A DNA stretch of 64,000 bases from Bacteroidales bacterium (GCA_965230045.1 OZ245940.1:1999403-2063402), one strand, 5' to 3'. Shown: positions 1 to 23,519, numbered from the stretch's first letter. Numbers and translations are program-made. The notes: generated by a model from the sequence alone, not told the origin.

Positions 1-135
1 AGCTTACTAAAGTAAGTGACTGGTTTCAATACCAAGAATAACGCTGAGATCGGACATTATGGACAAGCACTATTTAGTGTCTGTCTATAAAGTCGGGTTT
101 CTGATTCAGAATGTTCGAGGTCGAGGCATTTCTTT
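1..135. mobile_element. Two abutting fragments of MITE family A (subtype A1): the right part of one copy (1..70, cut by the window edge), a TATTTA junction (71..76), and the left ~57 bp of a second copy (77..~135)
   Basis: 1..70 matches the right half of the complete copies at 29554..29696 and 46931..47073 (cttactaaagtaag loop, aacgctgagatcggacattatggac terminus). 77.. starts with the family terminus gtgtctgtctataaagtcggg...gaggtcgaggcat and then breaks off. Confidence 0.6.
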
Positions 136-140
136 TTGAT

Positions 141-627
141 ATTTCACTATTGTTCGAGCATCATATCAGGAAGTTGCTAAAACAAAGGTTTATGCTTTTC
201 CCAAAAAAAATTCTGTATCCCAAACGGCATATATGAAAACAATATTTATCCTGACGTCGTTATTGATTATGGCAATGATTGTATTGGAGTCTATGATGTG
301 AAGTATAAAAAGTTTGATTTTTTAAATGGCGTTAATCGTGAAGACAGATTTCAGTTAATAACTTATGCTGCCTCATATCTTAGAAAATACAAAATTATTG
401 ACAGTGGAATCATATACCCTATTGGTGAATCAAATTGTGATAAAATCAATGCTATAAAACCTCAGTATCTTTGGGTTGGTAATATTAAGATTCCTTTTAA
501 GGTCAGGTTTTATAAAATCAAGCAAGATATTGCTTGGCAAAGGATAGTTGGTAATAATTTTTTGGATAAATTCTTTTGCAATTTGAAAGAAATTACTTCT
601 TCTACGGAAGAGAAATTGATTAATTGA
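141..627 (+). pseudogene. McrC-like / PD-(D/E)XK restriction-endonuclease C-terminal remnant, 5'-truncated by the MITEs and frameshifted
   Basis: Frame 1 reads ...NIYPDVVIDYGNDCIGVYDVKYKKFDF...REDRFQLITYA, a D...D-x-K core followed by a Q-x-x-x-Y motif as in McrC-type nucleases. Upstream, frame 3 reads LFEHHIRKLLKQRFMLFPKK up to an A8 run (203..210). No N-terminal half is present. Confidence 0.4.
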
Positions 628-639
628 AAAACACCATCT

Positions 640-1548
640 ATGTCCCAACAAGGCACCATAAAACGATATACGCTCATTATTGAGAAGATCAATAACGGAC
701 AGTTTCCTGGTTTTGAAGAGATCAGGAGCTTCCTTTTTGAACAGGGTTTTGAAGTCAGTAAGCGAACCGTGCAGCGCGATATTGAGCAAATACGCACGGA
801 GTTTGGGCTGGAGATTGTATATGAGCGCCATAGGAACGGTTACTTTATCGACTTTGAGGAAAGCTACAATACAGATGCCTTTTTTCGCTTTCTGGAAATT
901 GTAAATACGGCTGAAATGCTCAAAACAAGCCTCTCGGAGAGCAAAGAAAGCCTGCGCTATATTTCTTTTGATGATGGTGGAGGATTGCGGGGCGTTTCTC
1001 AACTGGGACCTTTGCTCAAAGCTGTACGCGAGAAATGCTATATTTCATTTCGGCATCAAAGCTATTTCAGGGATAAAGCCAGGCGATACACCATAAAACC
1101 CTATTTGCTGAGGGAGTATCTGAACCGCTGGTATGTTATTGGGCTGATCGGGCCAATGAAAGAATTCCGGACTTTTGGCATCGACCGGATCACCGAACTG
1201 GAAGTGAAAGCAAAATCTTTTGAGCCTCATGCCGAGCTGGATGCGCGGGAAGCTTTCCGGAATATTATTGGCTTGGTTTATTCAATGAGCGCTGTGCAAT
1301 CTGTTATCCTTTCTTTCACCCCGGAGCAGGGAAAATACATTAAGAGCCTGCCTTTGCATCACAGCCAGGAGGTTTTGATTGACGATGAAAAAGAATGCCG
1401 CATCAAGCTGAGAGTCATTCCAAATTTAGAACTCAAACAGCAAATCCTGATGCAGGGAGATCGCGTAAAGGTGATTGAGCCTCAGTGGCTGGTGGAGGAA
1501 ATCAAGGAAATTTTATTAAAAAGCCTGGAACGATATTCCTCAGAATAA
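640..1548 (+). CDS. WYL-domain transcriptional regulator (N-terminal wHTH + WYL + C-terminal extension)
   Basis: HTH segment SKRTVQRDIEQIRTEFG. WYL-type segment RYTIKPYLLREYLNRWYVIGL...FRTFGIDRI. C-terminal KVIEPQWLVEEIKE. Starts 12 nt after the upstream ORF stop. Confidence 0.85.
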   Translation: MSQQGTIKRYTLIIEKINNGQFPGFEEIRSFLFEQGFEVSKRTVQRDIEQIRTEFGLEIVYERHRNGYFIDFEESYNTDAFFRFLEIVNTAEMLKTSLSESKESLRYISFDDGGGLRGVSQLGPLLKAVREKCYISFRHQSYFRDKARRYTIKPYLLREYLNRWYVIGLIGPMKEFRTFGIDRITELEVKAKSFEPHAELDAREAFRNIIGLVYSMSAVQSVILSFTPEQGKYIKSLPLHHSQEVLIDDEKECRIKLRVIPNLELKQQILMQGDRVKVIEPQWLVEEIKEILLKSLERYSSE

Positions 1549-1566
1549 TTTTGTTTTTCGCTTGAA

Positions 1567-1602
1567 TACGCCATAGTTTGGCGTAGTACAGGGATAATTT
1601 TG
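1567..1602 (+). promoter_or_regulatory. Putative promoter/operator of the ATPase-protease operon: inverted repeat TACGCCA-N5-TGGCGTA (1567..1585) and a Bacteroidota-type -7 box TAATTTTG (1595..1602)
   Basis: The palindrome was read directly. TAATTTTG fits TAnnTTTG and lies 18 nt upstream of the ATG at 1620. Confidence 0.35.
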
Positions 1603-1619
1603 TCATCGATAAAAATAAT

Positions 1620-3665
1620 ATGATGGCAAAAGAAAACAATCAATCAAAACACATTCAACAGAAATACAAAGTCCTTGAGAATGCAAGGCAAACCCTCAAA
1701 AAAGAATTCATTGGCATAGATGGGATTATTGATGAAATCATTGAAAATGTAAGTGCCTGGTATTTGATGCCGCAACTTTTGGAGCGTCCGGTTGTGATCA
1801 ACCTTTGGGGTCTGACCGGAGTAGGAAAAACATCGGTGGTCAACCGTTTGGCCGAACTGCTCGATTATAAGAGTTTATACTACCGCTTCGATTTAGGCGA
1901 AAAAGAAAAGGGATATTCATTTGGGAGTACAGTGGATGAAATTAAAGAAAATGAAGAAGAAGAACCCATAATTTTCGCTCTGGATGAAATTCAGCAATGT
2001 CGGACAAAAATAGCTTCACGTCCTACTTTTCAGGACAAAAACCGGATGGTTTGGGATTTACTGGATAACGGCAAAATACAGTTTGTTGAATACTCACACG
2101 AACTTTGGCGAATTAAAAACCTGACATGGCGGCTCTACCAATTCATATTATTGGGCATCAAAGTAAAAGACGGCATTGTTTGTAGTCATAAGCAACAATA
2201 TCGGGATGAATTTGATGTGGATGATGATGAAGCGATTCTGCGTTTTATTCCGGAAAAGTATTATACATACATTATCAATCTGGCAGGCGATAAATTAAAT
2301 TTAAGCCTAAAGCAGGATCTTGAGAAAATCCTTTTGTCTGGAACCGCTGAAGAAAATATACAATTCCTTAAAAAAGTCATTAAAATAGGAAACGGGCCAA
2401 AAGTGGCGAATTTTTCAAAAGCTCTGATTTTTGTTTTGGGTAACCTGGATGAGGCATATAGCATGAGCGGCAATTACAGCTCTGATATGGATGCAGATGT
2501 TTTCCACCGTCTGTCAATCAAATTAAACGTTCCCAGAATCAAAAGTACCCTGGGCAAAATGTTTCGGGACGAACAGGTTGCCCGCCTTGGCAATATCCAT
2601 ATTATCTATCCGGCACTGAGCCGGAATTCCTATGAGCTGATTATTAAAAAAGAGCTTCATCAGCTTGCTCTTCAATTAAACAAACACTTTAATGTTCTGA
2701 TCGAATTTAGCGACAGTATTCATCAACTCATCTATGAAGAAGGTGTTTACCCCAGCCAGGGTGTTCGTCCGGTTTTTACCACCATTCATCAGATATTAAA
2801 AAGTACATGCAGTAACTTTTATGCGCAGATTTTAGCAAAAAATATAGATGCCGACAAACTTTTGTTTGAGCGTGCCGGCAACAAAATAAGGTGTATCTGC
2901 AAAAAGCTGAATCAAAGTGTATTTATACTGGAGTCAACCATAAAAACTTCCCTGGGCGATTTGCGCAAAAACAGAATGGACGATTTACAAGCAATTACTG
3001 CTGTTCACGAAAGTGGCCACGCTGTTTTATCCATTTCTTTGCTGGGAACAATTCCTGAAGCTGTTTATTCGGTCAGCTCCGATGCGGACAAGCATGGTTT
3101 TGTTTATTTCGAAGATGAATGGCCATTTATACCTCGCAAAGAAATCACGGCACGGGCAGCCGTATTGCTTGGAGGTTTTGTTGCTGAAAAGCTGATTTTT
3201 GGTCAGGAAAACCAAACCAATGGTTCCGAATCGGATATAAGCAAAGCAACTCAACTATTGCAATTTGCTTTTGCTAACTCAGGATTTGGAAAGCATCCCA
3301 TTCAATATGGTTTGCCGGTTTACGAGACGAAGGAAACCTACCATAATTATCAGGAAATGGAGGCTCAGGTCAAGGAGAGCCTGCAGAAATCTCTTCAACT
3401 GGCAGAACAGTGCCTCCAAAAGGAGTTTGCCCTCTTGCTAAAAATGTCTGATTACTTAAGTAAAAACAGCGTTCTTTCAAAAGCAAAAATCAAAGAATTA
3501 ACTGAAAAATACCTACAGGGATCAGGCGCTGAAAATGATAAATGGAACAGCTCTTTTTATCGGGATCAACTAAAAAACAAAATCCGGGAGTACGGAGACG
3601 AAGAACCTAACAATAAAGCAGTAGGTAATTCATTGATACTCAATAGCGATAAGAATACAGCCTAA
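1620..3665 (+). CDS. Soluble P-loop AAA+-type ATPase fused to an FtsH-type (M41) zinc metalloprotease domain; no TM segment
   Basis: Walker A LWGLTGVGKTS (K70, nt 1827..1829). Walker B PIIFALDEIQ. Lid-like MFRDEQVARLGNIHIIYPAL. Protease half: ITAVHESGHAV (HESGH at nt 3006..3020), AAVLLGGFVAEKLIFG, GSESDISKATQLL. These parallel FtsH HEAGHA / LLGGRAAEE / ASNDIxxAT. Confidence 0.85.
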   Translation: MMAKENNQSKHIQQKYKVLENARQTLKKEFIGIDGIIDEIIENVSAWYLMPQLLERPVVINLWGLTGVGKTSVVNRLAELLDYKSLYYRFDLGEKEKGYSFGSTVDEIKENEEEEPIIFALDEIQQCRTKIASRPTFQDKNRMVWDLLDNGKIQFVEYSHELWRIKNLTWRLYQFILLGIKVKDGIVCSHKQQYRDEFDVDDDEAILRFIPEKYYTYIINLAGDKLNLSLKQDLEKILLSGTAEENIQFLKKVIKIGNGPKVANFSKALIFVLGNLDEAYSMSGNYSSDMDADVFHRLSIKLNVPRIKSTLGKMFRDEQVARLGNIHIIYPALSRNSYELIIKKELHQLALQLNKHFNVLIEFSDSIHQLIYEEGVYPSQGVRPVFTTIHQILKSTCSNFYAQILAKNIDADKLLFERAGNKIRCICKKLNQSVFILESTIKTSLGDLRKNRMDDLQAITAVHESGHAVLSISLLGTIPEAVYSVSSDADKHGFVYFEDEWPFIPRKEITARAAVLLGGFVAEKLIFGQENQTNGSESDISKATQLLQFAFANSGFGKHPIQYGLPVYETKETYHNYQEMEAQVKESLQKSLQLAEQCLQKEFALLLKMSDYLSKNSVLSKAKIKELTEKYLQGSGAENDKWNSSFYRDQLKNKIREYGDEEPNNKAVGNSLILNSDKNTA

Positions 3666-3669
3666 AAAT

Positions 3670-4665
3670 ATGCAAGCCAAACTAATACCTTTGAAGAAAG
3701 TTTTTGAGAAGCATAATCTTTACAGGCTTTTTGATATTGACTTCGATAAGGCAGAGACGGTAGTGTGGCTATACAGACATGAACAACGTCTTTTCTGTCT
3801 CTTTAAATCCAAGGGCAAGTACCTGCTTCTTCATACCGATGGTTACCATTTTTGGTGTCGGGATACTGTCTATTGGGAGTATTACATTTATGATTCCTTG
3901 CATGAATCCTTCCGGAACATCAATCAGTTGTTTTACGATAGCATACCTTATTATGGTGTATGTAATCAAAGTAGAAGACAACTGGAGTATTGGATGAATA
4001 TAATCCCGGTTTGGGCAATATTGAGACCCAGATATTTATCAGTAATAGCCAGGGCGTATATACATGATCGTTTATCAAGCTTACAGGATACACCTAATTC
4101 AAATGAAGTGGCCTGGTTTGTGGATTCTGTGTATAAAATTTTCTGGAAAGAGTATTTTTTCAAAAAAAGCAGTAGCCAAATTGCTTCAATTCAGCCAATA
4201 TTACAGGATTTGGTCATAAAATGTATCGCTAAGAAAAAGTATCATGAAATTTACAAAAAAATTTGCAATGTAAAGACCGGATCATTTGTAATTGACTCTT
4301 TTACTTTGATTTATGATGATTGCAGTCAGATAGAATTTGAGATGGAAAGACAAAGATACAAGGAGATGATCAAGATATCGCCGGGAGATTACTCAGATTT
4401 TCTGATCAAAGAGGAGCAAATTCGGTCTAGTGACCAATTTTTGAATGAGCTTGAATGTAGCAATGGTGTAAAATTTACAAGTATAAAATTAAGGATTGAA
4501 TACGATTTGTACATTGATGGTTCGATGGAATTTGAGTACGATCAATACACGAATAAACTTGGTGAAAGATTTCGAGCCATTTATTATCAGATTGTTAAAG
4601 AGAAAATAATTGATGAAGATAGTATAGAAAACATGCCCATTTATAAGTTATTGAAGGGGACGTAG
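3670..4665 (+). CDS. Hypothetical 331-aa protein, operonic partner of the ATPase-protease
   Basis: A long ORF starting 4 nt after the upstream stop. Visibly rich in W/Y/F. No signal peptide, TM segment or catalytic motif recognised. Confidence 0.7.
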   Translation: MQAKLIPLKKVFEKHNLYRLFDIDFDKAETVVWLYRHEQRLFCLFKSKGKYLLLHTDGYHFWCRDTVYWEYYIYDSLHESFRNINQLFYDSIPYYGVCNQSRRQLEYWMNIIPVWAILRPRYLSVIARAYIHDRLSSLQDTPNSNEVAWFVDSVYKIFWKEYFFKKSSSQIASIQPILQDLVIKCIAKKKYHEIYKKICNVKTGSFVIDSFTLIYDDCSQIEFEMERQRYKEMIKISPGDYSDFLIKEEQIRSSDQFLNELECSNGVKFTSIKLRIEYDLYIDGSMEFEYDQYTNKLGERFRAIYYQIVKEKIIDEDSIENMPIYKLLKGT

Positions 4666-4704
4666 CATTGAAGCCCTGCGGGAAAGTGTGTAATTTAGCC
4701 CTGT

Positions 4705-6097
4705 GGGAGTATTCAGAAAAGTGTGTCAGCTGCTTGCCCTGCAACGCCCTGGAGCCTTGGCGGAAGGGCGTTGCAGGGCAAATATAAGCAATTATAAATA
4801 GCGGGCATAACGGTCTCCAAATTTTTCGATGAGTTCTCTCTGTATGGACCCCCAATTGAAGGCCTTGCGCTTCCAGCTTTTTTTGTTGTGCATCAATGCT
4901 AGATACAGCTGTTTTATCAGTCCTTTGTCGTTGCTCCAGGCTCCTTTGGACTTGGTTATCTTGCGCATAATACGATGCACTGCCTCAACTGGATTGGTGG
5001 TGTAGATCATCCGCCTGATATGATGCCCATAGTCCATAAACGCCATCAGTTCCTCCCAGTTTTCCTCCCATTTTGGACGGATGTTTTTGTATTTGCCGTC
5101 CCATTTCTGTCCAAATGATATTAAAGCTGTTTCGGCTTGTTGCCTGTTTGCTGCTGTATAGATCTTACGCAGATCAGAGCAAAGAGCCTTCCTGTCTTTG
5201 TCGCTTACAAAGCGGGTAGATGTGCGTACCATATGCACTATGCAGCGCTGTACAATGGCTTTGGGATAAACCTGGCCTATAACCCCGGAAAAGCCTTTAA
5301 GCCCATCTACACAAAAAAACAAAACTTCCTCTACGCCACGTTCCTTAAGGTCTTCCAGGATCATGCCCCACTGGTTGGCCCCTTCTGATTCGTTTATGTA
5401 AAGCCCAAGGATATCGCGTTGGCCTTCAGCGTCTATGCCATAACATGTATAGATGGCTTTGCTGATAATATGACCCGCTTCGCGGACTTTAAAGTGAACA
5501 GCATCAAGGTATATGACACTGTAGCACGGAAATAGCAACCGCTGCTGCCATTGGGTAATTTCAGGCCATACACGGTCGGTTACCGAACTGATTACTCCGG
5601 CGCTTATTTCAAGCCCATATAGGTGCTGCAACTGGTAGCGCACATCCTCAACTGATTGACCGCGGGCGTATAGGCTTAGGATTATTTCATCTACCCCGTT
5701 CCCAAGGTCCCTGTCCCACTTTTTAACCAAAATCGGCTCATGGTCGCCTTGGCGGTCACGCGGCGTGCGTACCTGCAGCGCTCCGGCAGCACTGCGTACT
5801 TTTTTCTCCGTATAGCCATTGCGCCGGTTGCCGCTGTCAACCTTTTGGCTTAAACTATGATTTATCTCGCCCTCTAAGGCTGCATTTACCATAGTTTGAA
5901 GCATCTCGCTGAAAACACTGCCTTCTCCAAATAAGGATTCTCCACTGTATAAGCGACTTAGTACTCTTTCTCGTAAATGCGCATCTGGTATCAACTCTTC
6001 CATGCGCGGGGATTTCTTGTTTTTCTTTCTTGTCATGTGTCAAATGTATTAATTCAGTTCTAATTCCCAAACATGACACACTTTTTTGAACAGCCTC
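4705..6097 (-). mobile_element. Intact IS256-family insertion sequence (1393 bp) with an 8-bp target-site duplication AGCCCTGT
   Basis: Direct repeats AGCCCTGT at 4697..4704 and 6098..6105. Imperfect terminal inverted repeats gggagtattcagaaaagtgtgtca / gaggctgttcaaaaaagtgtgtca (19 of 24 positions match). Confidence 0.9.
4792..6036 (-). CDS. IS256-family (mutator-type) transposase
   Basis: Typical IS256 segments: YLDAVHFKVRE...AIYTCYGIDAEGQRDILGLY, FFCVDGLKGF, VQRCIVHMVR, YTTNPVEAVHR. Confidence 0.95.
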   Translation of the reverse strand: MTRKKNKKSPRMEELIPDAHLRERVLSRLYSGESLFGEGSVFSEMLQTMVNAALEGEINHSLSQKVDSGNRRNGYTEKKVRSAAGALQVRTPRDRQGDHEPILVKKWDRDLGNGVDEIILSLYARGQSVEDVRYQLQHLYGLEISAGVISSVTDRVWPEITQWQQRLLFPCYSVIYLDAVHFKVREAGHIISKAIYTCYGIDAEGQRDILGLYINESEGANQWGMILEDLKERGVEEVLFFCVDGLKGFSGVIGQVYPKAIVQRCIVHMVRTSTRFVSDKDRKALCSDLRKIYTAANRQQAETALISFGQKWDGKYKNIRPKWEENWEELMAFMDYGHHIRRMIYTTNPVEAVHRIMRKITKSKGAWSNDKGLIKQLYLALMHNKKSWKRKAFNWGSIQRELIEKFGDRYARYL

Positions 6098-6173
6098 AGC
6101 CCTGTACTAAGAAGTGAGACCATTATAACTGTTACTCATTAGGTAAACAAGCTCAATTATTTTCATTTATAAT

Positions 6174-6668
6174 TTAGAATGAGTCAAATCCTTTTTGTGT
6201 TAAAACCATGCAAAAAACATGTCTGTCTTCAGTTGTAATTAAATCATTTTCAACCAATCTCTCAATTGCTCTTTCAATCAAAGCATTTTCTTTAGGATTT
6301 AACCATTTACTTAAGTTAAAGTTAATCCATCTATAATCGACAACATGATTAACTTTTGAATTAGTATCAGCAAATTGTTGCATAATTATACTACCAATTC
6401 TTTCAATTACTTCATCTTCATTAATTGGGTAGATTGCATCAAATCCTTTCTCAGTCAAAACTAAACAGAATCCACTTCTGTCATCGGTTTTTATTAAACC
6501 ATCATTTACTAAATCATTAATTGCTGGATTAATTAAATTTTGCTCTTTGGCGTTTAACTGTCTTAATAGTACTTGGTTTATCCACCTTTCTTGAATTACG
6601 TGCTTGGGTTTTGAATTTGTTTCTACAAACTGATTCATTATCAAATTTGCAATATCATTTTGTGTCAT
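6174..6668 (-). CDS. Hypothetical protein built from two tandem ~80-aa repeats
   Basis: The two halves align (QFVETNSKPKHVIQERWIN...LVNDGLIKTDDRSGFCLVLTEKGFD versus QFADTNSKVNHVVDYRWIN...LVENDLITTEDRHVFCMVLTQKGFD). The DNA is AT-rich relative to its neighbours. Confidence 0.65.
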   Translation of the reverse strand: MTQNDIANLIMNQFVETNSKPKHVIQERWINQVLLRQLNAKEQNLINPAINDLVNDGLIKTDDRSGFCLVLTEKGFDAIYPINEDEVIERIGSIIMQQFADTNSKVNHVVDYRWINFNLSKWLNPKENALIERAIERLVENDLITTEDRHVFCMVLTQKGFDSF

Positions 6669-6867
6669 GTTTTATTGTTTTATAATTAATTCTACTTTAC
6701 GAACTTAATTTTTGTGGTTTAATGGTCTAATTTGCTTTAAACGAGTAAAAAGGGTTGAAAGATGGATATTCCGGACTAAACCGACCCACCCGACCGGCTG
6801 AAATAAACAGCAATAAAAAGCCATCAAAGACTGCCAATCCGGCGAATACTGCCCCATTGAAACGGAA

Positions 6868-6946
6868 AAAGGTACTTCAGGCAAACAAATCCGGGCTATG
6901 TTGACCCTTATTTATCGCTTTTTTTTGCCCGGCACGCAATCACAAG
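6868..6946. repeat. 79-bp direct repeat, copy 1 (partner at 8382..8460)
   Basis: aaaggtacttcaggcaaacaaatccgggctatgttgacccttatttatcgcttttttttgcccggcacgcaatcacaag versus the near-identical string at 8382..8460. Confidence 0.8.
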
Positions 6947-7303
6947 TTTGTTAATTTCTTCGATACTTAAGCCGGTGATTTCCTGGATAATATCAATTTC
7001 CATTCCTTTAAGGAGCAGATTCCTTGCTAAGGATAATTTTTCTTCTTTTCTGCCTTCTTCCCTGCCTTTAATTAGTGTTTGTCCATAGAGTCGAGAGTTT
7101 GCTCTATAAAGTTCAAATTCAAGGCGTGTGAAAAATCTAAACCGCAGTATACTAGGGTATATGAGGATTTAGATTTTGAGCAACAACGCAGAAGTTGGAC
7201 TTTATAGACGAACTCTAATTAGCCCCTTTTCTTCTGCCCAGTCAATGGAGTTTTTGATATCGTTGAGGATATCCGGATTGAAATTGTATTTTCTCCCGGT
7301 CAT
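6908..7303 (-). pseudogene. Truncated Rpn-family C-terminal paralogue, split by a MITE
   Basis: Reads MTGRKYNFNPDILNDIKNSIDWAEEKGLI, then the MITE, then KGREEGRKEEKLSLARNLLLKGMEIDIIQEITGLSIEE. This matches the C-terminus of the intact neighbour at 7308..8270. Confidence 0.7.
7075..7215. mobile_element. MITE family A, subtype A3, with a TAATTA target duplication (7069..7074 and 7216..7221)
   Basis: Termini gtgtttgtccatagagtcg ... ggactttatagacgaactc. The same element occurs at 29703..29843. The uninterrupted homologous site is at 7532..7537. Confidence 0.85.
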
Positions 7304-7307
7304 TGTC

Positions 7308-8270
7308 TCAGAGTTCATCCTGTAGTTTGCTGATTTCTTCCAGGCTTAAGCCGGTGATTTCCCGGATAATATCAATTTCCATATCTTTAAGGAACAGATT
7401 CCTTGCTAAGGATAATTTTTCTTCTTTTCTGCCTTCTTCCCTGCCTTCTTCCCTGCCTTCTTTTCTACCTCTAATAATTCCTTTCTTCTCTCCCTCAATC
7501 AGCCCTTCTTGTTTGCCTTCTTCCCTGCCTTTAATTAGCCCCTTTTCTTCTGCCCAGTCAATGGAGTTTTTGATATCGCGATAGGCATTTAGGCTGAACT
7601 GATATTCTTTGTACTCCTTTGAATCCAAACGGGCAATTTCTGCCGTTTCAAAGAATTTAAGGAAAACCTGTTCCCTCAGTTTTTCAGGCACGCGGTCCAA
7701 GCGGTTTAGGTTTTTGATCACATAAAGCCATTTTTCAAATTTGCTTTCCAGCTCCGATAGCTCCTTGCTGAATTTGGGCATAGCGAGATAAATGTAAGTG
7801 AGCTTGTCGTAGAAAATATCCTTGCTGTCCAAATCACAGATCTTCGCATCGAAACGGTATTTGTCCTCCGGGCTCTCGTCGCCCTTAAACACGAAATCCA
7901 AAATACCAATGGTATAAACGTGCTTGAGCTCAAAATTCCAGTCTTTGCCTTTGTCTTTTGCCTGCTCCTGAATCGGGAAAGTAGAATAAAAAACAGTGCG
8001 ATCCTTGAAATACTTCTGTTCTGCCTTTTGCATTTCCACAATGAAACGCTCGCCCTTTTCGTTTTTGCAGTAAATATCAAAAATAGCCCTGCGGTCGCCC
8101 AAGGCAATCGGCAGGTTTTCGTTGGGCAAATACGACAGCTCCACAATGTTGCCTTCCTGCTCGCGCAACAGCTCGTTCAGGAAATCCTGCAATAAATCCT
8201 TGCTGGGCTCCTCGCCAAACAATCGTTTAAAACCGTAATCCGTAAAAGGATTGATGTATTTTTCTTTCAT
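7308..8270 (-). CDS. Rpn-family recombination-promoting nuclease / PD-(D/E)XK putative transposase
   Basis: N-terminus MKEKYINPFTDYGFKRLFGEE...LLQDFLNELL with IFDIYC...FIVEMQ core. C-terminal E/G/K-rich repeat and LSLEEISKL tail. Confidence 0.85.
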   Translation of the reverse strand: MKEKYINPFTDYGFKRLFGEEPSKDLLQDFLNELLREQEGNIVELSYLPNENLPIALGDRRAIFDIYCKNEKGERFIVEMQKAEQKYFKDRTVFYSTFPIQEQAKDKGKDWNFELKHVYTIGILDFVFKGDESPEDKYRFDAKICDLDSKDIFYDKLTYIYLAMPKFSKELSELESKFEKWLYVIKNLNRLDRVPEKLREQVFLKFFETAEIARLDSKEYKEYQFSLNAYRDIKNSIDWAEEKGLIKGREEGKQEGLIEGEKKGIIRGRKEGREEGREEGRKEEKLSLARNLFLKDMEIDIIREITGLSLEEISKLQDEL

Positions 8271-8381
8271 AGCTAAAGTGCTGGTTCACAAAAATAATAC
8301 ATTATAGGCACTAAAATCAATTTTAGCAAAAGCTTTTTGATATTATGAGAGCACAACAGGCAACTGACCCTTTAAAAGAAT

Positions 8382-8460
8382 AAAGGCACTTCAGGCATCC
8401 AAATCCGGGGCATATTGACCCTTATTTATCGCTTTTTTTTGCCCGGCAACCGATCACAAG
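8382..8460. repeat. 79-bp direct repeat, copy 2 (partner at 6868..6946)
   Basis: Same orientation and near-identical sequence. The two copies bracket the Rpn gene and its truncated paralogue. Confidence 0.8.
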
Positions 8461-8593
8461 ATGGCGAATGATCAATAAAAAAAACGCTGCAACACTCCTG
8501 CAACACATCAACAACATTATTGCACAACTGCTACAGGAGCCTTGCTTATTACGGACACTATGGCAAACGTATCTAAATTTGCTGTTATATTGA

Positions 8594-8873
8594 ATGGATA
8601 TACTCTCTTGTCAAGCTTACCGGAGGACATTTGTCTCCATTATTGGCAAAACAATAAAAGGAGCAAAATCCATGGTAAAAAAAATCCTTATTCACTCATT
8701 AAACGCCTGGGCAGCTGAAAGTGGTCTGGTTTTAGGGCATGTCAAAACGGATGGAAGTCAAATAAGATTACTGCAACTCCAAAATGCTGAATTTACTGAT
8801 GCTGAAAAACGAAAAACCTTGAAATCAGGAGATAAAGGTAAAGTGCCAGAGGCTGGTTTTATGAAAGTACTTA
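8594..8873 (+). pseudogene. ISAs1-family transposase remnant (central fragment only)
   Basis: SIIGKTIKGAKS...ILIHSLNAWAAESGLVLGHVKTDG resembles the ISAs1 segment AIDGKTLRGS...HLVSA...GLVLGQ.KV. The expected KSNEITAIP follows only in another frame (KSNKITATP). The DDE domain is missing and the ORF runs into a MITE. Confidence 0.45.
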
Positions 8874-9015
8874 GTTTCCGTCTATAAAGTCCGCTAACTT
8901 CGTTACGCTTGCCCGAAAAATGCTCATTTACACCAGTAAACTCTGCTTTTTCGGGCTGCGCAAGCCTCGTTATCGAACTTTCTAGCTCAGAAACACGACA
9001 TTATAGACAGACACT
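8874..9015. mobile_element. MITE family A, subtype A2 (inverted), with TSD TACTTA (8868..8873 and 9016..9021)
   Basis: Reverse complement of the copies at 29407..29547 and 51103..51243. A perfect 6-bp duplication flanks it. Confidence 0.85.
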
Positions 9016-9107
9016 ACTTAATTAATGATGCGTTGCCTTATTAAAATTGTTCCACCGTTTTGGTAATTCGGTTTTATCCTTTTACCTTTACAAACAAACG
9101 AACTCTT

Positions 9108-10124
9108 ATGTCACGAAAGATTGTAATGCTTGTTGATGAGCGGACACTGCCAAACCTGCAGTTTATACATGAATTTGGCGCCGGTGCAGATGAATACATC
9201 TTTATAACCACCCGAAAAATGGAAGTGCCGGACGCCAATCGGGTGAACTGGATTATAAAATCTGCTGGAATTGATGATGAAAAATGTAGCCGGCTGGTAT
9301 GTGACCCTCACGGTATTAGCCAAACTTCCCAGCAACTTTCAGGTTTGAACCTTGATTTGGCTAATGAGTACCTGGTGCATATTACTTGCGGAACAAAAAT
9401 TATGGCTTTGGCGGCCTATAGTTTTTTCGGTCGTTTCCCGAAAGCAAGGATTATCTTCAGCTTTTTGGGTGAAGGCTCATACCGTCAGCTCCATCCGCAT
9501 ATTACGAGGGCGGAGCATGAATATAAAACCAAACCCTCGCTCAAAGCTTCATTGCTTGCGCATGGGTTAAAAATAGCTTTTGCAGACAGGAAGCTAACAG
9601 ATGCAGGCATGGGGCGTCATTTGATGGATGAATGCATCAAAAACAATAACCGTCAAAACCATATTCCTGAGATACGAAAGGCCATGAAATGCATCACGCC
9701 CGAAGAGCGATCCTATTTTAGCGGAGGTTGGTTTGAAGAATATGTTTATGATCGTATCAAAACTGAGTTGAAACTGGCTGATGATCAGATTGCTATGAAA
9801 GTAAGCGTGCGAAAAGCAGAAGTTTATAATGAGTTTGATGTGATTTTCCTCTACCGTGACCGCATTCATGTGGTAGAGTGCAAAGCATATTTTTCACGGC
9901 ATAACCTCAAAACAAAGGTAGAAGGAGCTTTGTATAAACTGGGTGCTTTGGATGATAAATTTGGCATGAACACCCGATCTTTGTTTTTTACAAACCTTGA
10001 TTTTGCGCGTGACGATATCCGTTTGAATGAAGTGTTGCGGGCACGGGCCAAGGACCTGAAGGTGCGCTTTGTTGATATGTCGGATATACGGGAAAGGCGC
10101 CTGAACCTTTCCGTACATGAATAA
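9108..10124 (+). CDS. CARF-like domain + PD-(D/E)XK nuclease protein (Card1/Can2-like, DUF1887-type)
   Basis: N-terminus KIVMLVDERTLPNLQFI...EYIFITT follows the DUF1887/CARF start pattern. C-terminal nuclease core EFDVIFLYRDRIHVVECKAY (nt 9831..9890). The ATG at 9108 is preferred over the TTG at 9060. Confidence 0.7.
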   Translation: MSRKIVMLVDERTLPNLQFIHEFGAGADEYIFITTRKMEVPDANRVNWIIKSAGIDDEKCSRLVCDPHGISQTSQQLSGLNLDLANEYLVHITCGTKIMALAAYSFFGRFPKARIIFSFLGEGSYRQLHPHITRAEHEYKTKPSLKASLLAHGLKIAFADRKLTDAGMGRHLMDECIKNNNRQNHIPEIRKAMKCITPEERSYFSGGWFEEYVYDRIKTELKLADDQIAMKVSVRKAEVYNEFDVIFLYRDRIHVVECKAYFSRHNLKTKVEGALYKLGALDDKFGMNTRSLFFTNLDFARDDIRLNEVLRARAKDLKVRFVDMSDIRERRLNLSVHE

Positions 10125-10176
10125 AAAAAGCACCTGTAATAGTTGCAGATGCTTTTTGGTGGAATAAATGTCTTGC

Positions 10177-10812
10177 TTATTTTTTTGCCAGGTAAGATGA
10201 AACTCCTTCCTGAGTTGGTTTCATTGCTTCATCACCTTTGTGCCAGTCGGCAGGGCAAACTTCACCGTTTTCTTCGAAGAACTGAAGTGCATCGATCATG
10301 CGGAGCGTTTCCTCAACACTTCTGCCCAGTGGCATATCATTAACAACCTGATGACGCACAACGCCTTGCTTGTCGATGAGGAAAAGACCACGATACGAAA
10401 CGGCTTCACCATCAAATGTGCTCAGGTCGTCCTCTTCATCATAATCATATTCACCGGCCAAAACATCGTAATTTTCTGATATAGTTTTGCTTAGGTCAGA
10501 AACCAGGGGAAATTTTACGCCTTGGATCCCGCCTTTGTTTTTTTCGGTATTTAACCAGGCAAAATGGGAAAATTTTGAATCAACGGAACAGCCAACAACA
10601 GCTACATTGCGTTTTTCAAATTCTTCTATTTTATCCTGAAATGCAATGATTTCGGTAGGACAGACAAAAGTGAAATCGGCAGGGTAGAAGAAGAAAATGA
10701 CGTGTTTTTTCCCAATAAATTGCTCCAATGAAAATTTTTCGACGAATTCGCAGCCGTTAATCACAGCATCTGCTTCGAAATGAGGGGCTTTTTTACCAAC
10801 TAATACGGACAT
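10177..10812 (-). CDS. Typical 2-Cys peroxiredoxin (AhpC/Prx1 family)
   Basis: FFFYPADFTFVCPTEI peroxidatic Cys motif and GEVCPADW resolving Cys motif. Confidence 0.95.
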   Translation of the reverse strand: MSVLVGKKAPHFEADAVINGCEFVEKFSLEQFIGKKHVIFFFYPADFTFVCPTEIIAFQDKIEEFEKRNVAVVGCSVDSKFSHFAWLNTEKNKGGIQGVKFPLVSDLSKTISENYDVLAGEYDYDEEDDLSTFDGEAVSYRGLFLIDKQGVVRHQVVNDMPLGRSVEETLRMIDALQFFEENGEVCPADWHKGDEAMKPTQEGVSSYLAKK

Positions 10813-12438: not shown

Positions 12439-13797
12439 TTAATCGTGGCGCAATGAGGTTACCGGATCCTGTTCCGATGCCCTTTTTGCGGGCATATAGC
12501 CAAACAATATTCCTACACCGGCCGATACGCCAAACGAAATCACAATGCTTACCACACTGATGATGGTCAGGATACCGGTTATTTTCATAATGAGTTTGGC
12601 GAAAATAACACCGAGCAAAATACCGATGATACCCCCAGCCAGGCTGATGAGTGTAGATTCCATCAGGAACTGCATCACGATATCCCGCTTACGGGCGCCA
12701 ATAGCAAGCCGCACTCCAATTTCGCGGATACGTTCCATCACGGATGCCAGCATAATATTCATAATCCCAATGCCGCCCACAATCAGCGAAATACTGGCAA
12801 TGGCGCCAAGCACGATATTGAAAATATCTTTGGTGCGTTGTTCTTGCTTAAGCAGAAGCTCGGGAATAGTGATTTCAAAATCCTGTGCCCCGGAATGCCT
12901 GCGCAGGATCATCCGGCTCAAAACTTCCGCAGTAGGACTGAGGTAGCGGCTGTCCGTTACCTGCACGGTAATTTTATCGAGCTGGTTGCGGTTGCTCTCT
13001 TCGGTAGAAGATGAACTTCGCCTTCGTCCCCTGCGGGATATTGATTCGCTGGTGATCCTGGCCCGGTCATTATATCTGCTCAATACACTTGTCAGGGGCG
13101 CAAATACATCATTTTGACTCAAATCCATACCGAGCTCGCTGAGCTTGCCCGATGTGTTCAAATCTTTGATGATTCCGCACACTGTAAACCAGATGTCTCC
13201 GCATTTGATGCTTTTCCCAATTGGGTCTTCCTTTTGAAAAAGGCGTGCGCTGAGTTTCTGGCCAATCACACAGACGGGTTTGTCTGATTTCATATGCTGT
13301 TCATCAAAGAAATGCCCTTTGATCAGTTCATGGCCAAAAACGTCAAAATAATTTGGGGTAACTCCTTTTAATGTGGCTTTGCTTTTGTTTCCTGCTCGGA
13401 TAACGGTAGTGTTATAACTTACTTCGGGGCAAACATTTAGTGCTGTGGGCACATTCTGTTCAATAGCAATTGCTTCTTCCATGCTGAGGCCACGGGAAAG
13501 TTTGCCCATATTTTTTCCCTGGTCTTCATTGCCTGAATCGGAATCGGAATCAGAGTCGGAATCGGAATTTTCATCATCGCTCCTGGCGTTATCTGTTTTA
13601 GCCGAGATAATGATGTTGTTGACACCCACAAGTTTCATTTGGTCGAGGATTTCCTTTTGTGCCCCTTTGCCGATGGATAACATGGCAATAACGGCAGCAA
13701 CGCCAAAAATAATGCCCAAAGTAGTGAGCAGACTGCGGGTTTTATTGGCGATTACGGCCTCAAGAGCAATCAGGAGGATTTGTATGAAGCGTTCCAT
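12439..13797 (-). CDS. MacB-type ABC transporter permease (MacB periplasmic domain + FtsX) with an SD-rich insertion
   Basis: N-terminus ANKTRSLLTTLGIIFGVAAVIAM. C-terminus FtsX-like EIGVRLAIGARKRDI...PAKRASEQDPVTSLR. Insert is SDDENSDSDSDSDSDSGNEDQ. Confidence 0.9.
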   Translation of the reverse strand: MERFIQILLIALEAVIANKTRSLLTTLGIIFGVAAVIAMLSIGKGAQKEILDQMKLVGVNNIIISAKTDNARSDDENSDSDSDSDSDSGNEDQGKNMGKLSRGLSMEEAIAIEQNVPTALNVCPEVSYNTTVIRAGNKSKATLKGVTPNYFDVFGHELIKGHFFDEQHMKSDKPVCVIGQKLSARLFQKEDPIGKSIKCGDIWFTVCGIIKDLNTSGKLSELGMDLSQNDVFAPLTSVLSRYNDRARITSESISRRGRRRSSSSTEESNRNQLDKITVQVTDSRYLSPTAEVLSRMILRRHSGAQDFEITIPELLLKQEQRTKDIFNIVLGAIASISLIVGGIGIMNIMLASVMERIREIGVRLAIGARKRDIVMQFLMESTLISLAGGIIGILLGVIFAKLIMKITGILTIISVVSIVISFGVSAGVGILFGYMPAKRASEQDPVTSLRHD

Positions 13798-21785: not shown

Positions 21786-22232
21786 ACTCAATAACAAATT
21801 CAGCAGTTCCGCATTAAAAAAGCCTAACTCGTAAGGCCGTGAAAATAAAGGGGATAATAATTTAGGTCAGAAATATTTTTCGCACTATTTTTGCACGCAA
21901 TTGGCCTGACACCTTCAATAACATTTACTAAGGCGTAAGTTGTTGATTATAAATTAGTTAACCACAAACAGGCGAATGACCGCCATTCCTAGGGGATGTG
22001 GGTTTCATGTTTTTTTAATTAAAAAACGCCGGGGCTAAGCCACGTATACCGGCGTTTTTGTTTACCGCTAAGATACTGCAATTCAGCGAAATGACCAAAA
22101 TTTTTATCGTTTTTTTGTTATATTTTTGCAATTATTTTCTATACTTCGTATATTATATAGAAGACGGAAAAATTGAGAAAAAGGGCTAGGTGCAAAGCCA
22201 AAATCGAATTGCACCAAATTTTCACCTTCACA

Positions 22233-23519
22233 ATGCAGGTGAGTATAACCATCAAGCGGCATTTCCCGGATTTTTTGAATCTTCTCGCCCAAGTAAGCGA
22301 TCAGCGCAAACAACCAATTTACAAAGTTGAGGAATTATTGATGGCAGTAGTAGCGATGTTCCTTTTTAAGCGTGGTTCCAGAAACCATGCAGACAACACC
22401 GCTAGAAAAGGAAGCTATTGTTTTAATTTTGAAAGGCTTTTCGGTTGTAGGCTGCCCGATCTGGACACTTCCAACAGACTGCTTAAACAACTGGACCCAA
22501 AAGAATTGGAAGAGATAAAGCGAAAGATGGTACAGCTGCTCTTAAGAGCGAAAGTATTGAATAAATACAAACTCTTTGGGCTCTATCACCTTATTGGGAT
22601 TGATGCCACAGGAACTCATAGTTTTGACTACGAACCTTATCCCGAATGTCCTTATAAAACATACAAGAGCGGAAAGCGGACATGGACAGCCTATGTACTG
22701 GAAGCAAAGATTATGTGTGGAAACGGATTTAGTTTTTCAATGGCTACTGAATGGGTCAAAAACCCCATAAACCAAGATTATGAAAAACAGGATTGTGAAC
22801 TAAAGGCCTTTAAACGGCTCAGCAAAAAGATCAGGCAGATGTATCCACGCCTACCGATCGCCATTGCGGCCGATGGACTGTACCCCAACGATAATGTCTT
22901 TAAAACTTGCGCTTCCAACCAATGGCGGTTTATCATCACCCTTAAAGATGGCAACCTTCCCAGCATATGGGAGGAAGTAAACCTGCTCAAAAAAGCAGGT
23001 GCCCTTGCTACAGAAAAAAACTATGACATCCATGGGCAGCACAAAATCTCCACCGAATATTGTTTTCTTAACAGTATTGCTTATAAAACACACAATATCA
23101 ACTTTTTGGAAACACAAATTGTCACAACGGCCATACAAAATAACGAGCTGCCTGTTAAAGAGCGTTTTGTCCATATTACTGATTTAGAGGTTACAAACAA
23201 AAATGCTAAAACCATAAGTGATTACGGGCGTTTAAGATGGAAAATTGAAAACGAAGGCTTTAATGCACAAAAAAATTCTGGCTATAATCTATCGCACAAA
23301 TACTCTAGAACATCGTTTTGCGCAACCCAGAATTATTATCAATGCTTGCAAATAGCCCACATGATAAATCAATTGGCACATAAATCCCAGCGCGTCCAGA
23401 AAATGATATCAAGCCATGATTCTTTGAAATCCTTCGAGGAATGCATTATAGTTTTATTGATTGCAGGTAATCTTACTGATTTTCCCACGCCAAACTTTAA
23501 CTGCCAGATGAGATACTGA
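22233..23519 (+). CDS. DDE transposase (IS4-like superfamily)
   Basis: LIGIDATGTHSF, IAADGLYPNDNVF and LRWKIENEGFNAQKN..YNLSH are typical DDE_Tnp_1 segments. ATG at 22233 is preferred over the TTG at 22173. Confidence 0.85.
   Translation: MQVSITIKRHFPDFLNLLAQVSDQRKQPIYKVEELLMAVVAMFLFKRGSRNHADNTARKGSYCFNFERLFGCRLPDLDTSNRLLKQLDPKELEEIKRKMVQLLLRAKVLNKYKLFGLYHLIGIDATGTHSFDYEPYPECPYKTYKSGKRTWTAYVLEAKIMCGNGFSFSMATEWVKNPINQDYEKQDCELKAFKRLSKKIRQMYPRLPIAIAADGLYPNDNVFKTCASNQWRFIITLKDGNLPSIWEEVNLLKKAGALATEKNYDIHGQHKISTEYCFLNSIAYKTHNINFLETQIVTTAIQNNELPVKERFVHITDLEVTNKNAKTISDYGRLRWKIENEGFNAQKNSGYNLSHKYSRTSFCATQNYYQCLQIAHMINQLAHKSQRVQKMISSHDSLKSFEECIIVLLIAGNLTDFPTPNFNCQMRY

What the first reader, a model, noticed from the sequence alone, without database searches (positions are those of the whole stretch)
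9108..10124. Orphan CARF + PD-(D/E)XK nuclease (Card1/Can2-like) with no CRISPR-Cas or cyclase in sight
The N-terminal KIVMLVDERTLPNLQFI...YIFITT and the C-terminal EFDVIFLYRDRIHVVECK match the layout of cyclic-oligoadenylate-activated ancillary nucleases of type III CRISPR systems. The window has no CRISPR array, no cas10 and no CD-NTase. Either the signal generator is encoded elsewhere, or the gene is a stranded remnant, or it responds to a different ligand.
Basis: partly seen in the sequence, partly recalled or inferred. Interest (0 to 1): 0.6.

Follow-up and report, generated by a model that had tools for sequence, protein, structure and literature searches.

The report
Orphan Card1-like nuclease, altered sensor pocket
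This is an intact CRISPR-type "alarm-activated" nuclease gene in a genome that has no enzyme to make the alarm molecule; it is kept by strong selection across its genus, but its alarm-binding pocket has changed at key contact residues, as in a few known orphan relatives.

Summary
Window 9108..10124 (+) encodes a 338-aa Card1/Can2-family (DUF1887) protein with a CARF sensor domain and a PD-(D/E)xK nuclease domain. Pfam, PDB sequence search and a confident AlphaFold model all support this.

It is a true orphan. The complete 5.14-Mb genome has type I and type II-C CRISPR-Cas but no Cas10, CD-NTase or mCpol.

It is not a decaying remnant:
- An ortholog is present in all five species of the genus.
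- In four close species, dN/dS is 0.03-0.05 and both domains are constrained.
- The ~70 bp before the start codon is conserved.
- The nuclease motif E-ExD-ECK is intact.

The gene borders a defence-island hotspot (AhpC-Card1-[island]-MutS). In one sister species this island holds a type III locus.

The sensor pocket is non-canonical. Of five cA4 contacts conserved across the Can2 family, three are changed (Ser/Thr→Asp10, Gln→Arg12, Tyr→Phe117). NxTGGTK reads HxTCGTK. Alanine substitutions at two of these positions severely reduce cA4-induced activity in Cdn1, and the orphan VC1899 shares the Asp.

Most likely it is a former type III effector kept as a nuclease gated by an altered or different signal. 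Orphan DUF1887 proteins are already known, so interest is moderate.

The parts
9108..10124 (+). Card1/Can2-family (DUF1887) gene, 338 aa plus stop
   Evidence: ORF and translation. Pfam PF23400 + PF09002 above cut-off. PDB and Foldseek best hit is Card1. The ATG at 9108 matches the N-termini of the homologs; the upstream in-frame TTG at 9060 is not supported by the homolog alignment.
9108..9527 (+). CARF (Rossmann-fold sensor) domain, residues 1-140
   Evidence: PF23400 covers residues 6-136. The model shows an alternating strand/helix pattern with pLDDT above 90. dN/dS is 0.02-0.08.
9129..9155 (+). CARF motif I, LVDERTLPN (residues 8-16). Asp10 replaces the conserved Ser/Thr, and Arg12 replaces the conserved Gln.
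   Evidence: Position 10 is Ser in 37 of 40 homologs and position 12 is Gln in 34 of 40. These map to SthCan2 Ser19/His21 and Cdn1 T9/Q11.
9210..9212 (+). Thr35, a retained cA4 base contact (Can2 Thr42, Cdn1 T37)
   Evidence: Thr in 39 of 41 homologs; mapping; role from PMC7969007.
9378..9398 (+). CARF motif II, HITCGTK (residues 91-97), in place of the family's NxTGGTK. Lys97 is retained.
   Evidence: N in 40 of 41, G in 36 of 41 and K in 40 of 41 homologs. NxTGGTK is conserved in all seven Can2 clades and mediates cOA binding (PMC10783487).
9456..9458 (+). Phe117 in place of the conserved phosphate-binding Tyr (Can2 Tyr118, Cdn1 Y124)
   Evidence: Tyr in 37 of 41 homologs; mapping. Y124A severely reduces cA4 activation of Cdn1.
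9705..10091 (+). PD-(D/E)xK nuclease domain, residues 200-328, with E210 (GGWFEE), E242-x-D244 (NEFD), E257-C258-K259 (ECK) and K277
   Evidence: PF09002. These columns are invariant in 41 homologs. They align to Card1 D294/E308/K310 and match the E-ExD-(E/S)CK motif of PMC10783487. dN/dS is 0-0.05.
9036..9107 (+). Conserved promoter-proximal region upstream of the ATG
   Evidence: It is 85-93% identical across four species, while sequence further upstream cannot be aligned. It contains TTTG-N20-TACCTTTA, which resembles the Bacteroidota -33/-7 promoter consensus. That resemblance is an inference from my own knowledge and was not tested.
7308..8270 (-). Rpn-type PD-(D/E)XK_2 'transposase' gene, the conserved neighbour of Card1 at the edge of the variable island
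   Evidence: PF12784, 237 bits. The same neighbour is present in G002. The genome has three copies, and two copies bracket the 61-kb island in G002.
1..7307 (.). Variable defence-island cargo (WYL regulator, AAA-M41 protease, a 331-aa ORF, IS256, a wHTH protein). The island runs from MutS, just upstream of the window, to Card1.
   Evidence: ORFs and Pfam. MutS lies at genome 1993719-1996343. In G002 the same flanks enclose different cargo, including a type III locus.
10177..10812 (-). Peroxiredoxin-like (AhpC-type) gene, the first core gene on the other side of Card1. Synteny is conserved in G002.
   Evidence: ORF lists of the window and of L032 give near-identical proteins in the same order. 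The name is assigned from the sequence by my own knowledge; no profile search was run on it.

Best explanation
The gene encodes a functional Card1/Can2-family nuclease descended from a type III CRISPR accessory effector. It now stands alone at the border of a defence-island hotspot, in a genome that cannot make cyclic oligoadenylates.

Shown:
- The fold and the domain architecture.
- An intact two-metal PD-(D/E)xK site.
- Absence of Cas10, CD-NTase and mCpol from the complete genome.
- Conservation in the genus under strong purifying selection on both domains.
- Substitution of three of the five family-conserved cA4 contacts (Asp10, Arg12, Phe117), and of the N and first G of NxTGGTK. These changes are identical in four species.

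Inferred:
- The protein still works as a homodimer, with a ligand site between the two CARF domains that allosterically switches on the nuclease, as in Card1, Can2 and Cdn1.
- The remodelled pocket no longer responds to cA4 from a resident Cas10 in the standard way.
- It is gated by an altered or different signal, or has become weakly constitutive or otherwise regulated, like VC1899. It then cuts DNA and/or RNA as a defence or stress nuclease independent of a resident type III system.
For: Family and fold.

Nuclease motifs are invariant in the family and present in the query.

Orphan status: no Cas10 by TIGR02578, TIGR02577 or PF22335, no SMODS, no mCpol. tblastn with three congeneric Cas10 proteins plus Csm3, Csm6 and Cas6 gave a best E of 0.4 for Cas10; the single lower value, 0.005 for Cas6, fell in a repeat-rich helicase. 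The weak hits resolved to RNase Y, a Schlafen-like protein, a helicase and a class III cyclase. Only type I and II-C loci and arrays are present.

Selection: orthologs in 5 of 5 genus species. Pairwise dN/dS is 0.03-0.05 with dS up to 0.31. The window genome's own branch has 19 synonymous and 2 non-synonymous changes. The CARF domain has omega 0.02-0.08 and the nuclease domain 0-0.05. The promoter-proximal ~70 bp is conserved.

Pocket: D10, R12, H91, C94 and F117 stand against S (37/40), Q (34/40), N (40/41), G (36/41) and Y (37/41). All four species share them. Ser19 and Tyr118 hydrogen-bond cA4 phosphates, and VC1899 (Asp9 at that position) is not activated by cA4 (PMC7969007). T9A and Y124A severely reduce cA4 activation of Cdn1 (PMC12825302).

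Origin: the closest homolog outside the genus lies inside a type III locus. Other canonical-pocket homologs also lie in type III modules. Another orphan, P0010, also has an altered pocket.
Against: - No biochemical data exist for this protein.
- Thr35, Lys97, Gly95-Thr96 and Pro15-Asn16 are retained, so residual cA4 or other cOA binding is not excluded. Tyr→Phe is conservative, and an Asp could still bond a ribose hydroxyl.
- Three of the four species that share this pocket do have a Cas10 with an intact GGDD motif, so the pocket could be tuned to their cOA product.
- The G004 ortholog is an orphan yet keeps a near-canonical pocket, so orphan status and pocket change are not strictly coupled.
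- The context sample is small (9 homolog lineages).
- The time of type III loss, if any, in this lineage is unknown, so low dN/dS on the terminal branch does not prove selection in the absence of Cas10.
Confidence: 0.55

Rival explanations
1. Stand-by trans effector. The protein is still a cOA-activated nuclease, kept in the chromosome as a fixed receiver for type III CRISPR-Cas modules that come and go by horizontal transfer. In this genome it is idle because the type III module is currently absent.
For: Three congeners carry three different type III loci at three different places, each with a Cas10 that has a GGDD motif, while the Card1 ortholog stays at one fixed site. In G002 the type III locus lies in the island next to Card1. 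The Lys97/Thr35/GTK core of the pocket is retained. Cdn1 shows that Can2-family pockets can accept several cOA sizes.
Against: Each congener's type III locus already has its own candidate sensor/effector: a 478-aa CARF-PD-(D/E)xK-like protein, a Csx1/Csm6-like protein, and a weak NARF-like membrane protein. Two positions whose alanine mutants severely reduce cA4 activation in Cdn1 are changed, one to a negative charge. The gene is equally conserved in genomes without Cas10 (G000 and G004).
Confidence: 0.3
2. Stranded, decaying remnant of a lost type III locus with no current function.
For: No cOA synthase is present in the genome. Pocket residues are substituted.
Against: The frame is intact in five species. 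dN/dS is 0.03-0.05 over dS up to 0.31, including 19:2 on this genome's own branch. The CARF domain is as constrained as the nuclease domain. The pocket substitutions are identical in four species rather than scattered. The catalytic residues are invariant. The promoter-proximal DNA is conserved while its surroundings have been replaced.
Confidence: 0.05
3. The activating signal is made in this genome by an unrecognised synthase, or by invading elements, and is still a cyclic oligoadenylate.
For: Profile searches can miss very divergent palm-domain cyclases. The genome encodes a membrane class III nucleotidyl cyclase (genome 537129..538295) and a DAC c-di-AMP synthase. The adjacent island holds uncharacterised genes, a 331-aa ORF and an AAA-M41 protease.
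Against: No candidate is genetically linked to the gene in any of the four species. The island cargo differs between species while Card1 is constant. All Cas10, CD-NTase and mCpol searches were negative, with positive controls in other genomes.
Confidence: 0.1

Closest known systems
Card1 of Treponema succinifaciens (PDB 6wxw/6wxx/6xl1), Can2 clade 5
   Same: Best sequence and structure match (phmmer 1.9e-31; Foldseek TM 0.76, 24-27% identity). It has the same CARF + PD-(D/E)xK layout, the same GGWFEEY / NExD / ECK / YKL nuclease motifs, and the same TIPN and GTK elements in the CARF domain.
   Different: Card1 is encoded in a type III-A locus and is activated by cA4. It has Ser11, Gln13, NITGGTK and Tyr where the query has Asp10, Arg12, HITCGTK and Phe117. 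The query is 44 residues shorter in the helical insertion between the domains. It has no Cas10 in its genome.
Can2 (SthCan2 7bdv, TsuCan2, TbrCan2 8q3y) and Cdn1 (9u49/8z4i)
   Same: Same family (DUF1887) and fold. Lys97 and Thr35 correspond to Can2 Lys99/Thr42 and Cdn1 K104/T37. The ECK-type nuclease site is as in SthCan2.
   Different: These are type III-B/D effectors with canonical Ser/Thr, Gln and Tyr contacts, which are needed for cA4 activation (T9A and Y124A in Cdn1). The query lacks these three side chains.
VC1899 of Vibrio cholerae (PDB 1xmx), the founding DUF1887 member
   Same: It is an orphan CARF nuclease with no type III system and a conserved nuclease site. It has Asp at the Ser19 position and Cys in the G-G-T-K motif (NASCGLR). 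It has lost the phosphate-binding Tyr, and cA4 does not activate it (PMC7969007; alignment).
   Different: VC1899 has lost all four conserved contacts (Asp9, Asp34, Arg96, Val115). The query keeps Thr35 and Lys97, so it is an intermediate. Sequence relatedness is distant (E 2e-6), which points to independent origins of the orphan state.
TieA (HP0986) of Helicobacter pylori
   Same: InterPro reports a DUF1887 domain in TieA. It binds and cleaves DNA without sequence specificity, with no cOA involved in the reported assays (PMC5100599).
   Different: No sequence comparison with the query was made here. TieA has been studied as a host-interacting protein of a pathogen, which is a very different biological setting.

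Membership tests
Card1/Can2 (DUF1887; Pfam PF23400 + PF09002; CARF4 CARF_PDDEXK) | N-terminal CARF Rossmann-fold domain of the Card1 type | tested here: met
   PF23400, 72.6 bits against a cut-off of 24.6. AF2 pLDDT 92.4. Foldseek ranks Card1, Can2, VC1899 and Cdn1 at the top.
Card1/Can2 (DUF1887; Pfam PF23400 + PF09002; CARF4 CARF_PDDEXK) | C-terminal PD-(D/E)xK nuclease with the E-ExD-(E/S)CK motif | tested here: met
   PF09002, 65.5 bits against 26.4. E210, E242-x-D244 and E257-C258-K259 are present and invariant in 41 homologs. The motif definition comes from PMC10783487.
Card1/Can2 (DUF1887; Pfam PF23400 + PF09002; CARF4 CARF_PDDEXK) | NxTGGTK cOA-binding motif, conserved in all seven Can2 clades | tested here: not met
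   The query has HITCGTK. The N (40 of 41 homologs) and the first G (36 of 41) are replaced; T, G, T and K are kept.
Card1/Can2 (DUF1887; Pfam PF23400 + PF09002; CARF4 CARF_PDDEXK) | Conserved cA4 contacts: Ser/Thr, Gln, Thr, Lys, Tyr (Cdn1 T9/Q11/T37/K104/Y124; Can2 Ser19/Thr42/Lys99/Tyr118) | tested here: not met
   The query has Asp10, Arg12, Thr35, Lys97 and Phe117, so 2 of 5 are kept.
Card1/Can2 (DUF1887; Pfam PF23400 + PF09002; CARF4 CARF_PDDEXK) | Encoded in or with a type III CRISPR-Cas system (Cas10 in the genome) | tested here: not met
   No Cas10, Csm or Cmr genes in the complete genome. Relatives with canonical pockets do lie in type III loci.
Card1/Can2 (DUF1887; Pfam PF23400 + PF09002; CARF4 CARF_PDDEXK) | cA4-dependent, metal-dependent nuclease activity as a homodimer | not testable with these tools
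   This needs purified protein. No multimer or ligand modelling was available.
VC1899-like orphan DUF1887 proteins | No type III system in the genome | tested here: met
VC1899-like orphan DUF1887 proteins | Pocket made unfavourable for cA4: an acidic residue at the Ser19 position and loss of the phosphate-binding Tyr | tested here: met
   Asp10 and Phe117. The VC1899 description comes from PMC7969007.
VC1899-like orphan DUF1887 proteins | Loss of all four conserved contacts, including Thr42 and Lys99 | tested here: not met
   Thr35 and Lys97 are retained.
VC1899-like orphan DUF1887 proteins | Nuclease not regulated by cA4 | not testable with these tools
   This needs a biochemical assay.

The most novel reading that the evidence does not exclude
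The CARF pocket of this genus-wide gene has been re-tuned by selection (Asp10/Arg12/His91/Cys94/Phe117, fixed in four species with omega about 0.03) to sense a molecule other than cA4. Candidates are a different cOA size, an endogenous adenylate signal such as c-di-AMP, or a phage-derived nucleotide. That would make it a CRISPR-independent, ligand-gated nuclease, and a natural intermediate showing how type III effectors are exapted after they lose Cas10.
Probability: 0.3. Interest if true: 0.7.

Novelty: new member of a known kind. Interest (0 to 1): 0.42.

Why it matters
Orphan CARF effectors are common in genomes but essentially unexplained. VC1899 has had a solved structure since 2004 and still has no known ligand or function.

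This case offers a cleaner system:
- The protein is close enough to Card1 to model.
- Selection clearly maintains both domains.
- Only some of the cA4 contacts are changed, so reverting them is a simple experiment.
- Sister species carry the same protein together with three different type III systems.

It could show whether stranded type III effectors become receivers for new signals, remain stand-by receivers for incoming type III modules, or turn into unregulated nucleases.

If it turns out to be an ordinary cA4 receptor, the result is simply another Can2 homolog whose partner locus was lost.

Tried and rejected
- **Weak genome hits to Cas10/mCpol profiles.** They resolved to RNase Y (HD/KH), a Schlafen/AlbA-like regulator, a repeat-rich helicase and a membrane class III cyclase. 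None is a Cas10.
- **Small repeat clusters from my CRISPR scan** (2.74, 3.42, 3.44 and 4.82 Mb). These are tandem or MITE-like repeats without unique spacers, not arrays. The G002 type III repeat is absent from this genome.
- **First ortholog DNA alignment (A1).** It used the wrong strand and was discarded. A2 is the valid one.
- **Rpn-Rpn deletion idea.** I tested whether recombination between the two Rpn copies that bracket the G002 island produced the window's arrangement. The outer flanks match (MutS and AhpC), but the window's island has its own cargo beyond its Rpn copy (WYL, AAA-M41, IS256). A simple Rpn-Rpn deletion is therefore not shown, only a shared hotspot.
- **Class-level co-occurrence statistic of Card1-like genes with Cas10.** The family is too rare (4 of 400 genomes) for a statistic.
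- **Loci of other genomes** are not placed in the Python box, so they were read with the ORF and alignment tools instead.
- **Papers not held:** the Card1 paper (Rostol 2021) and the CARF classification paper (Makarova 2020). The roles of Card1 residues were therefore taken from the Can2 and Cdn1 papers.
- **The sigma-70 promoter scan** found nothing upstream on the + strand. This is uninformative for Bacteroidota-type promoters.

Full report
**Observation.** Pfam finds a Card1-type CARF domain (PF23400, residues 6-136, 72.6 bits against a cut-off of 24.6). It also finds a Card1-like endonuclease domain (PF09002, residues 200-328, 65.5 bits against 26.4). PADLOC's best model is CARF4--CARF_PDDEXK at 2.8e-48. 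NCBIfam has no model for it. Against PDB sequences the best hits are Card1 (1.9e-31), Can2 (1.5e-15) and VC1899 (2e-6). An AlphaFold2 model built on 41 homologs has mean pLDDT 92.4 and pTM 0.88. Foldseek ranks Card1 first (TM 0.76, E 4e-26), followed by Can2, VC1899, Cdn1 and Can1. The family assignment is therefore confirmed.

**Is it really an orphan?** The window lies in a single-contig genome of 5.14 Mb.
- Profile searches of all six frames found no Cas10. TIGR02578 gave only a 19-bit HD match, TIGR02577 gave nothing meaningful, and PF22335 gave nothing.
- They found no CD-NTase (PF18144) and no mCpol. The control genomes did give hits.
- tblastn with the Cas10, Csm3, Csm6/Csx1, Cas6 and CARF proteins of three congeners gave a best E of 0.4 for Cas10. 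The one lower value, 0.005 for Cas6, fell in a repeat-rich helicase.
- The weak hits are RNase Y, a Schlafen-like regulator, a repeat-rich helicase and a membrane class III nucleotidyl cyclase.
- The genome does have CRISPR-Cas, with two cas1 genes. One belongs to a type I locus (cas6, cas5, cas3, cas8, cas7) with an array of about 148 repeats. The other belongs to a type II-C locus (cas9 of 1533 aa) with about 120 repeats. Neither type makes cyclic oligoadenylates; that statement rests on established knowledge.
- The only adenylate-cyclising enzyme recognised is a housekeeping DAC-domain c-di-AMP synthase.

**Evolutionary setting.** The family is rare in the class: 4 of 400 other genomes have a match. 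Yet it is present in all five species of this genus.
- In three species it is 98-99% identical. It lies in the same place, with the order tsf, efflux pump, TolC, AhpC-like gene, Card1, Rpn-type gene (shown for G002).
- The fourth species, G004, has an intact 53%-identical copy in another context.
- On the far side of Card1 and Rpn is a variable island that ends at MutS. It is about 12 kb in the window's genome and holds a WYL regulator, an AAA-M41 protease, IS256 and a wHTH protein. It is about 61 kb in G002, where it holds a pAgo-like gene, IS66, a second Rpn copy and a complete type III locus. That locus has an array, cas6, a 498-aa Cas10 with GGDD, RAMP genes and its own 478-aa CARF-nuclease-like gene.
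- G001 and G003 have two further, different type III loci elsewhere in their genomes. G001 has a short Cas10 with csm2-5 and a membrane protein with a weak NARF-like match. G003 has a classical III-A locus with an HD-Cas10, a Csx1/Csm6-like gene, cas1 and cas2.
- G000 and G004 have no Cas10 palm hit.
- The closest homolog outside the genus (P0004, 41% identity) sits inside a type III locus built like the G002 one. Other homologs lie in III-A or III-B loci, or next to the type III accessory genes MJ1673, MJ1674 and DUF7017.

The gene therefore descends from a type III effector. It now sits at a fixed site beside a defence-island hotspot whose type III content varies between species.

**Not a decaying remnant.**
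- Pairwise dN/dS among the four close orthologs is 0.03-0.05, with dS up to 0.31.
- On the window genome's own branch there are 19 synonymous and 2 non-synonymous private changes.
- The CARF domain (omega 0.02-0.08) is about as constrained as the nuclease domain (0-0.05).
- The ~70 bp before the ATG is 85-93% identical in the four species, while everything further upstream has been replaced by different mobile-element debris.
- That segment contains TTTG-N20-TACCTTTA, which resembles the Bacteroidota -33/-7 promoter. This is my inference and was not tested.
- The nuclease motif E-ExD-ECK (E210, E242-x-D244, E257-C258-K259) and K277 are present and invariant in 41 homologs. They align to Card1 D294/E308/K310 and match the motif definition in PMC10783487.

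**The sensor pocket is not canonical.** At positions that are nearly invariant in the family, the query and its three close orthologs differ from the consensus:

| Position | Query | Family consensus |
|---|---|---|
| 10 | Asp | Ser in 37 of 40 |
| 12 | Arg | Gln in 34 of 40 |
| 91 | His | Asn in 40 of 41 |
| 94 | Cys | Gly in 36 of 41 |
| 117 | Phe | Tyr in 37 of 41 |

- A profile alignment to the solved chains maps these onto SthCan2 Ser19, His21 and Tyr118, and onto Cdn1 T9, Q11 and Y124. Thr35 and Lys97, which are retained, map to Can2 Thr42/Lys99 and Cdn1 T37/K104.
- The Can2 paper identifies Ser19, Thr42, Lys99 and Tyr118 as the conserved cA4 contacts, with Ser19 and Tyr118 each bonding a phosphate. 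In the orphan VC1899 these are Asp9, Asp34, Arg96 and Val115, and cA4 does not activate that protein (PMC7969007).
- The Cdn1 paper states that T9, Q11, T37, K104 and Y124 are conserved in all Can2 clades. It also reports that T9A, K104A and Y124A severely reduce cA4-induced activity (PMC12825302).
- NxTGGTK is reported as conserved in all seven Can2 clades (PMC10783487). The query reads HxTCGTK.

The query thus keeps two of five conserved contacts. It carries an acidic residue exactly where VC1899 does. Among the homologs whose context I examined:
- The six with canonical pockets lie in or beside type III modules.
- The other strongly altered pocket (P0010: Gly, Arg, Ser, Arg) belongs to an orphan among housekeeping genes.
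- G004 is an orphan with a near-canonical pocket, so the coupling is not strict and the sample is small.

**Interpretation.** The best-supported reading (about 0.55) is a former type III effector that selection keeps as a working nuclease, whose sensor has been remodelled. It is probably no longer switched by cA4 in the standard way. It would be gated by an altered or different signal, or regulated otherwise, as has been suggested for VC1899.
- The main rival (about 0.3) is a stand-by cOA receiver for type III modules that come and go in this genus. The varied type III loci in the congeners, the retained Lys/Thr/GTK core, and the ligand plasticity shown for Cdn1 favour it.
- Against that rival: each congener's type III locus has its own candidate effector, the two hydroxyl contacts are lost, and the gene is equally conserved in genomes without Cas10.
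- Decay is unlikely (about 0.05).
- An unrecognised synthase cannot be excluded (about 0.1).

**Novelty.** Orphan DUF1887 proteins with pockets unsuited to cA4 are already described (VC1899). TieA of H. pylori is reported to carry DUF1887 and to cut DNA. NCBI already names relatives 'DUF1887 family CARF protein'. This is therefore a new member of a known kind. Its useful features are an intermediate pocket, clear purifying selection on both domains, and natural comparison strains with and without type III systems.

**Limits.** No dimer or ligand modelling was possible. The Card1 and CARF-classification papers were not available. Earlier notes from this scan describe window 1-10130 as a decayed defence island and 640-4665 as a WYL/AAA-protease module. 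My ORF and Pfam results agree with these descriptions where they overlap.

Noticed in passing
window 7308-8270 (-); genome copies at 3471954-3472877 and 3475839-3476786: An Rpn-type PD-(D/E)XK_2 'transposase' gene is the fixed neighbour of Card1. The genome has three copies, 86-100% identical. In sister species G002 two same-orientation copies bracket the 61-kb island that holds the type III locus, so these genes may mark or drive rearrangement of the island.
   Followed up: partly
window 640-4665 (+): A WYL-WCX regulator (302 aa), a soluble AAA + peptidase M41 fusion (681 aa) and a 331-aa ORF with no Pfam hit lie together in the variable island. An earlier follow-up (e1-2835069) already treats this as a WYL-controlled protease module.
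   Followed up: partly
L026:16678-17574 (G001 type III locus): This type III locus (short Cas10, csm2-5, cas6b) has no CARF or SAVED gene nearby. Instead it has a 298-aa protein with a signal/TM segment, a coiled coil and a C-terminal domain with a sub-threshold match to NARF (PF20299, E 4e-4). It could be a membrane effector with a Rossmannoid sensor.
   Followed up: partly
L029:4386-5822 (G002 type III locus): A 478-aa protein with a weak Card1-type CARF match (E 9e-4) and a D...D-x-K motif (EYDILCVTDKGTIIALDAK) occupies the position where relatives carry the ~340-aa Card1-like gene. It is a divergent second CARF-nuclease lineage in the same genus.
   Followed up: no
L032:14682-16769 (-) (G002, beside Card1/Rpn): A 695-aa ORF with a PIWI-like motif (GKLGGIPWRL), probably a prokaryotic Argonaute, and a 361-aa partner ORF lie in the same island. 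They are absent from the window's genome (tblastn found nothing).
   Followed up: partly
genome 1100789-1121421 and 2153154-2168330 (outside the window): There are two very large CRISPR arrays (about 148 and 120 repeats) with type I and type II-C cas genes. The type I repeat ends in ATTGAAAT, the kind of 8-nt handle that type III complexes also use. Each locus contains an ORF beginning ...YHI(Y/F)N(R/H)G, apparently a REP-associated tyrosine transposase-like gene.
   Followed up: partly
window 12439-13797 (-): A MacB-type ABC permease carries an acidic (Asp-Ser)n low-complexity insert (DSDSDSDSDS) in its periplasmic domain. The insert is conserved in G002.
   Followed up: no
window 4792-6036 (-) and 22173-23519 (+): An intact IS256-family transposase lies inside the island. 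A 448-aa ORF that looks like a DDE (IS4-type) transposase, judged by eye with no profile search, interrupts otherwise core genes further downstream.
   Followed up: no
L030:1135-1749 and 2766-3896 (G003 type III-A locus): A 204-aa protein with a faint Csm6-CARF match lies upstream of cas1 and may be a ring nuclease. A 376-aa ORF of unknown function lies on the opposite strand between cas1 and cas2.
   Followed up: no
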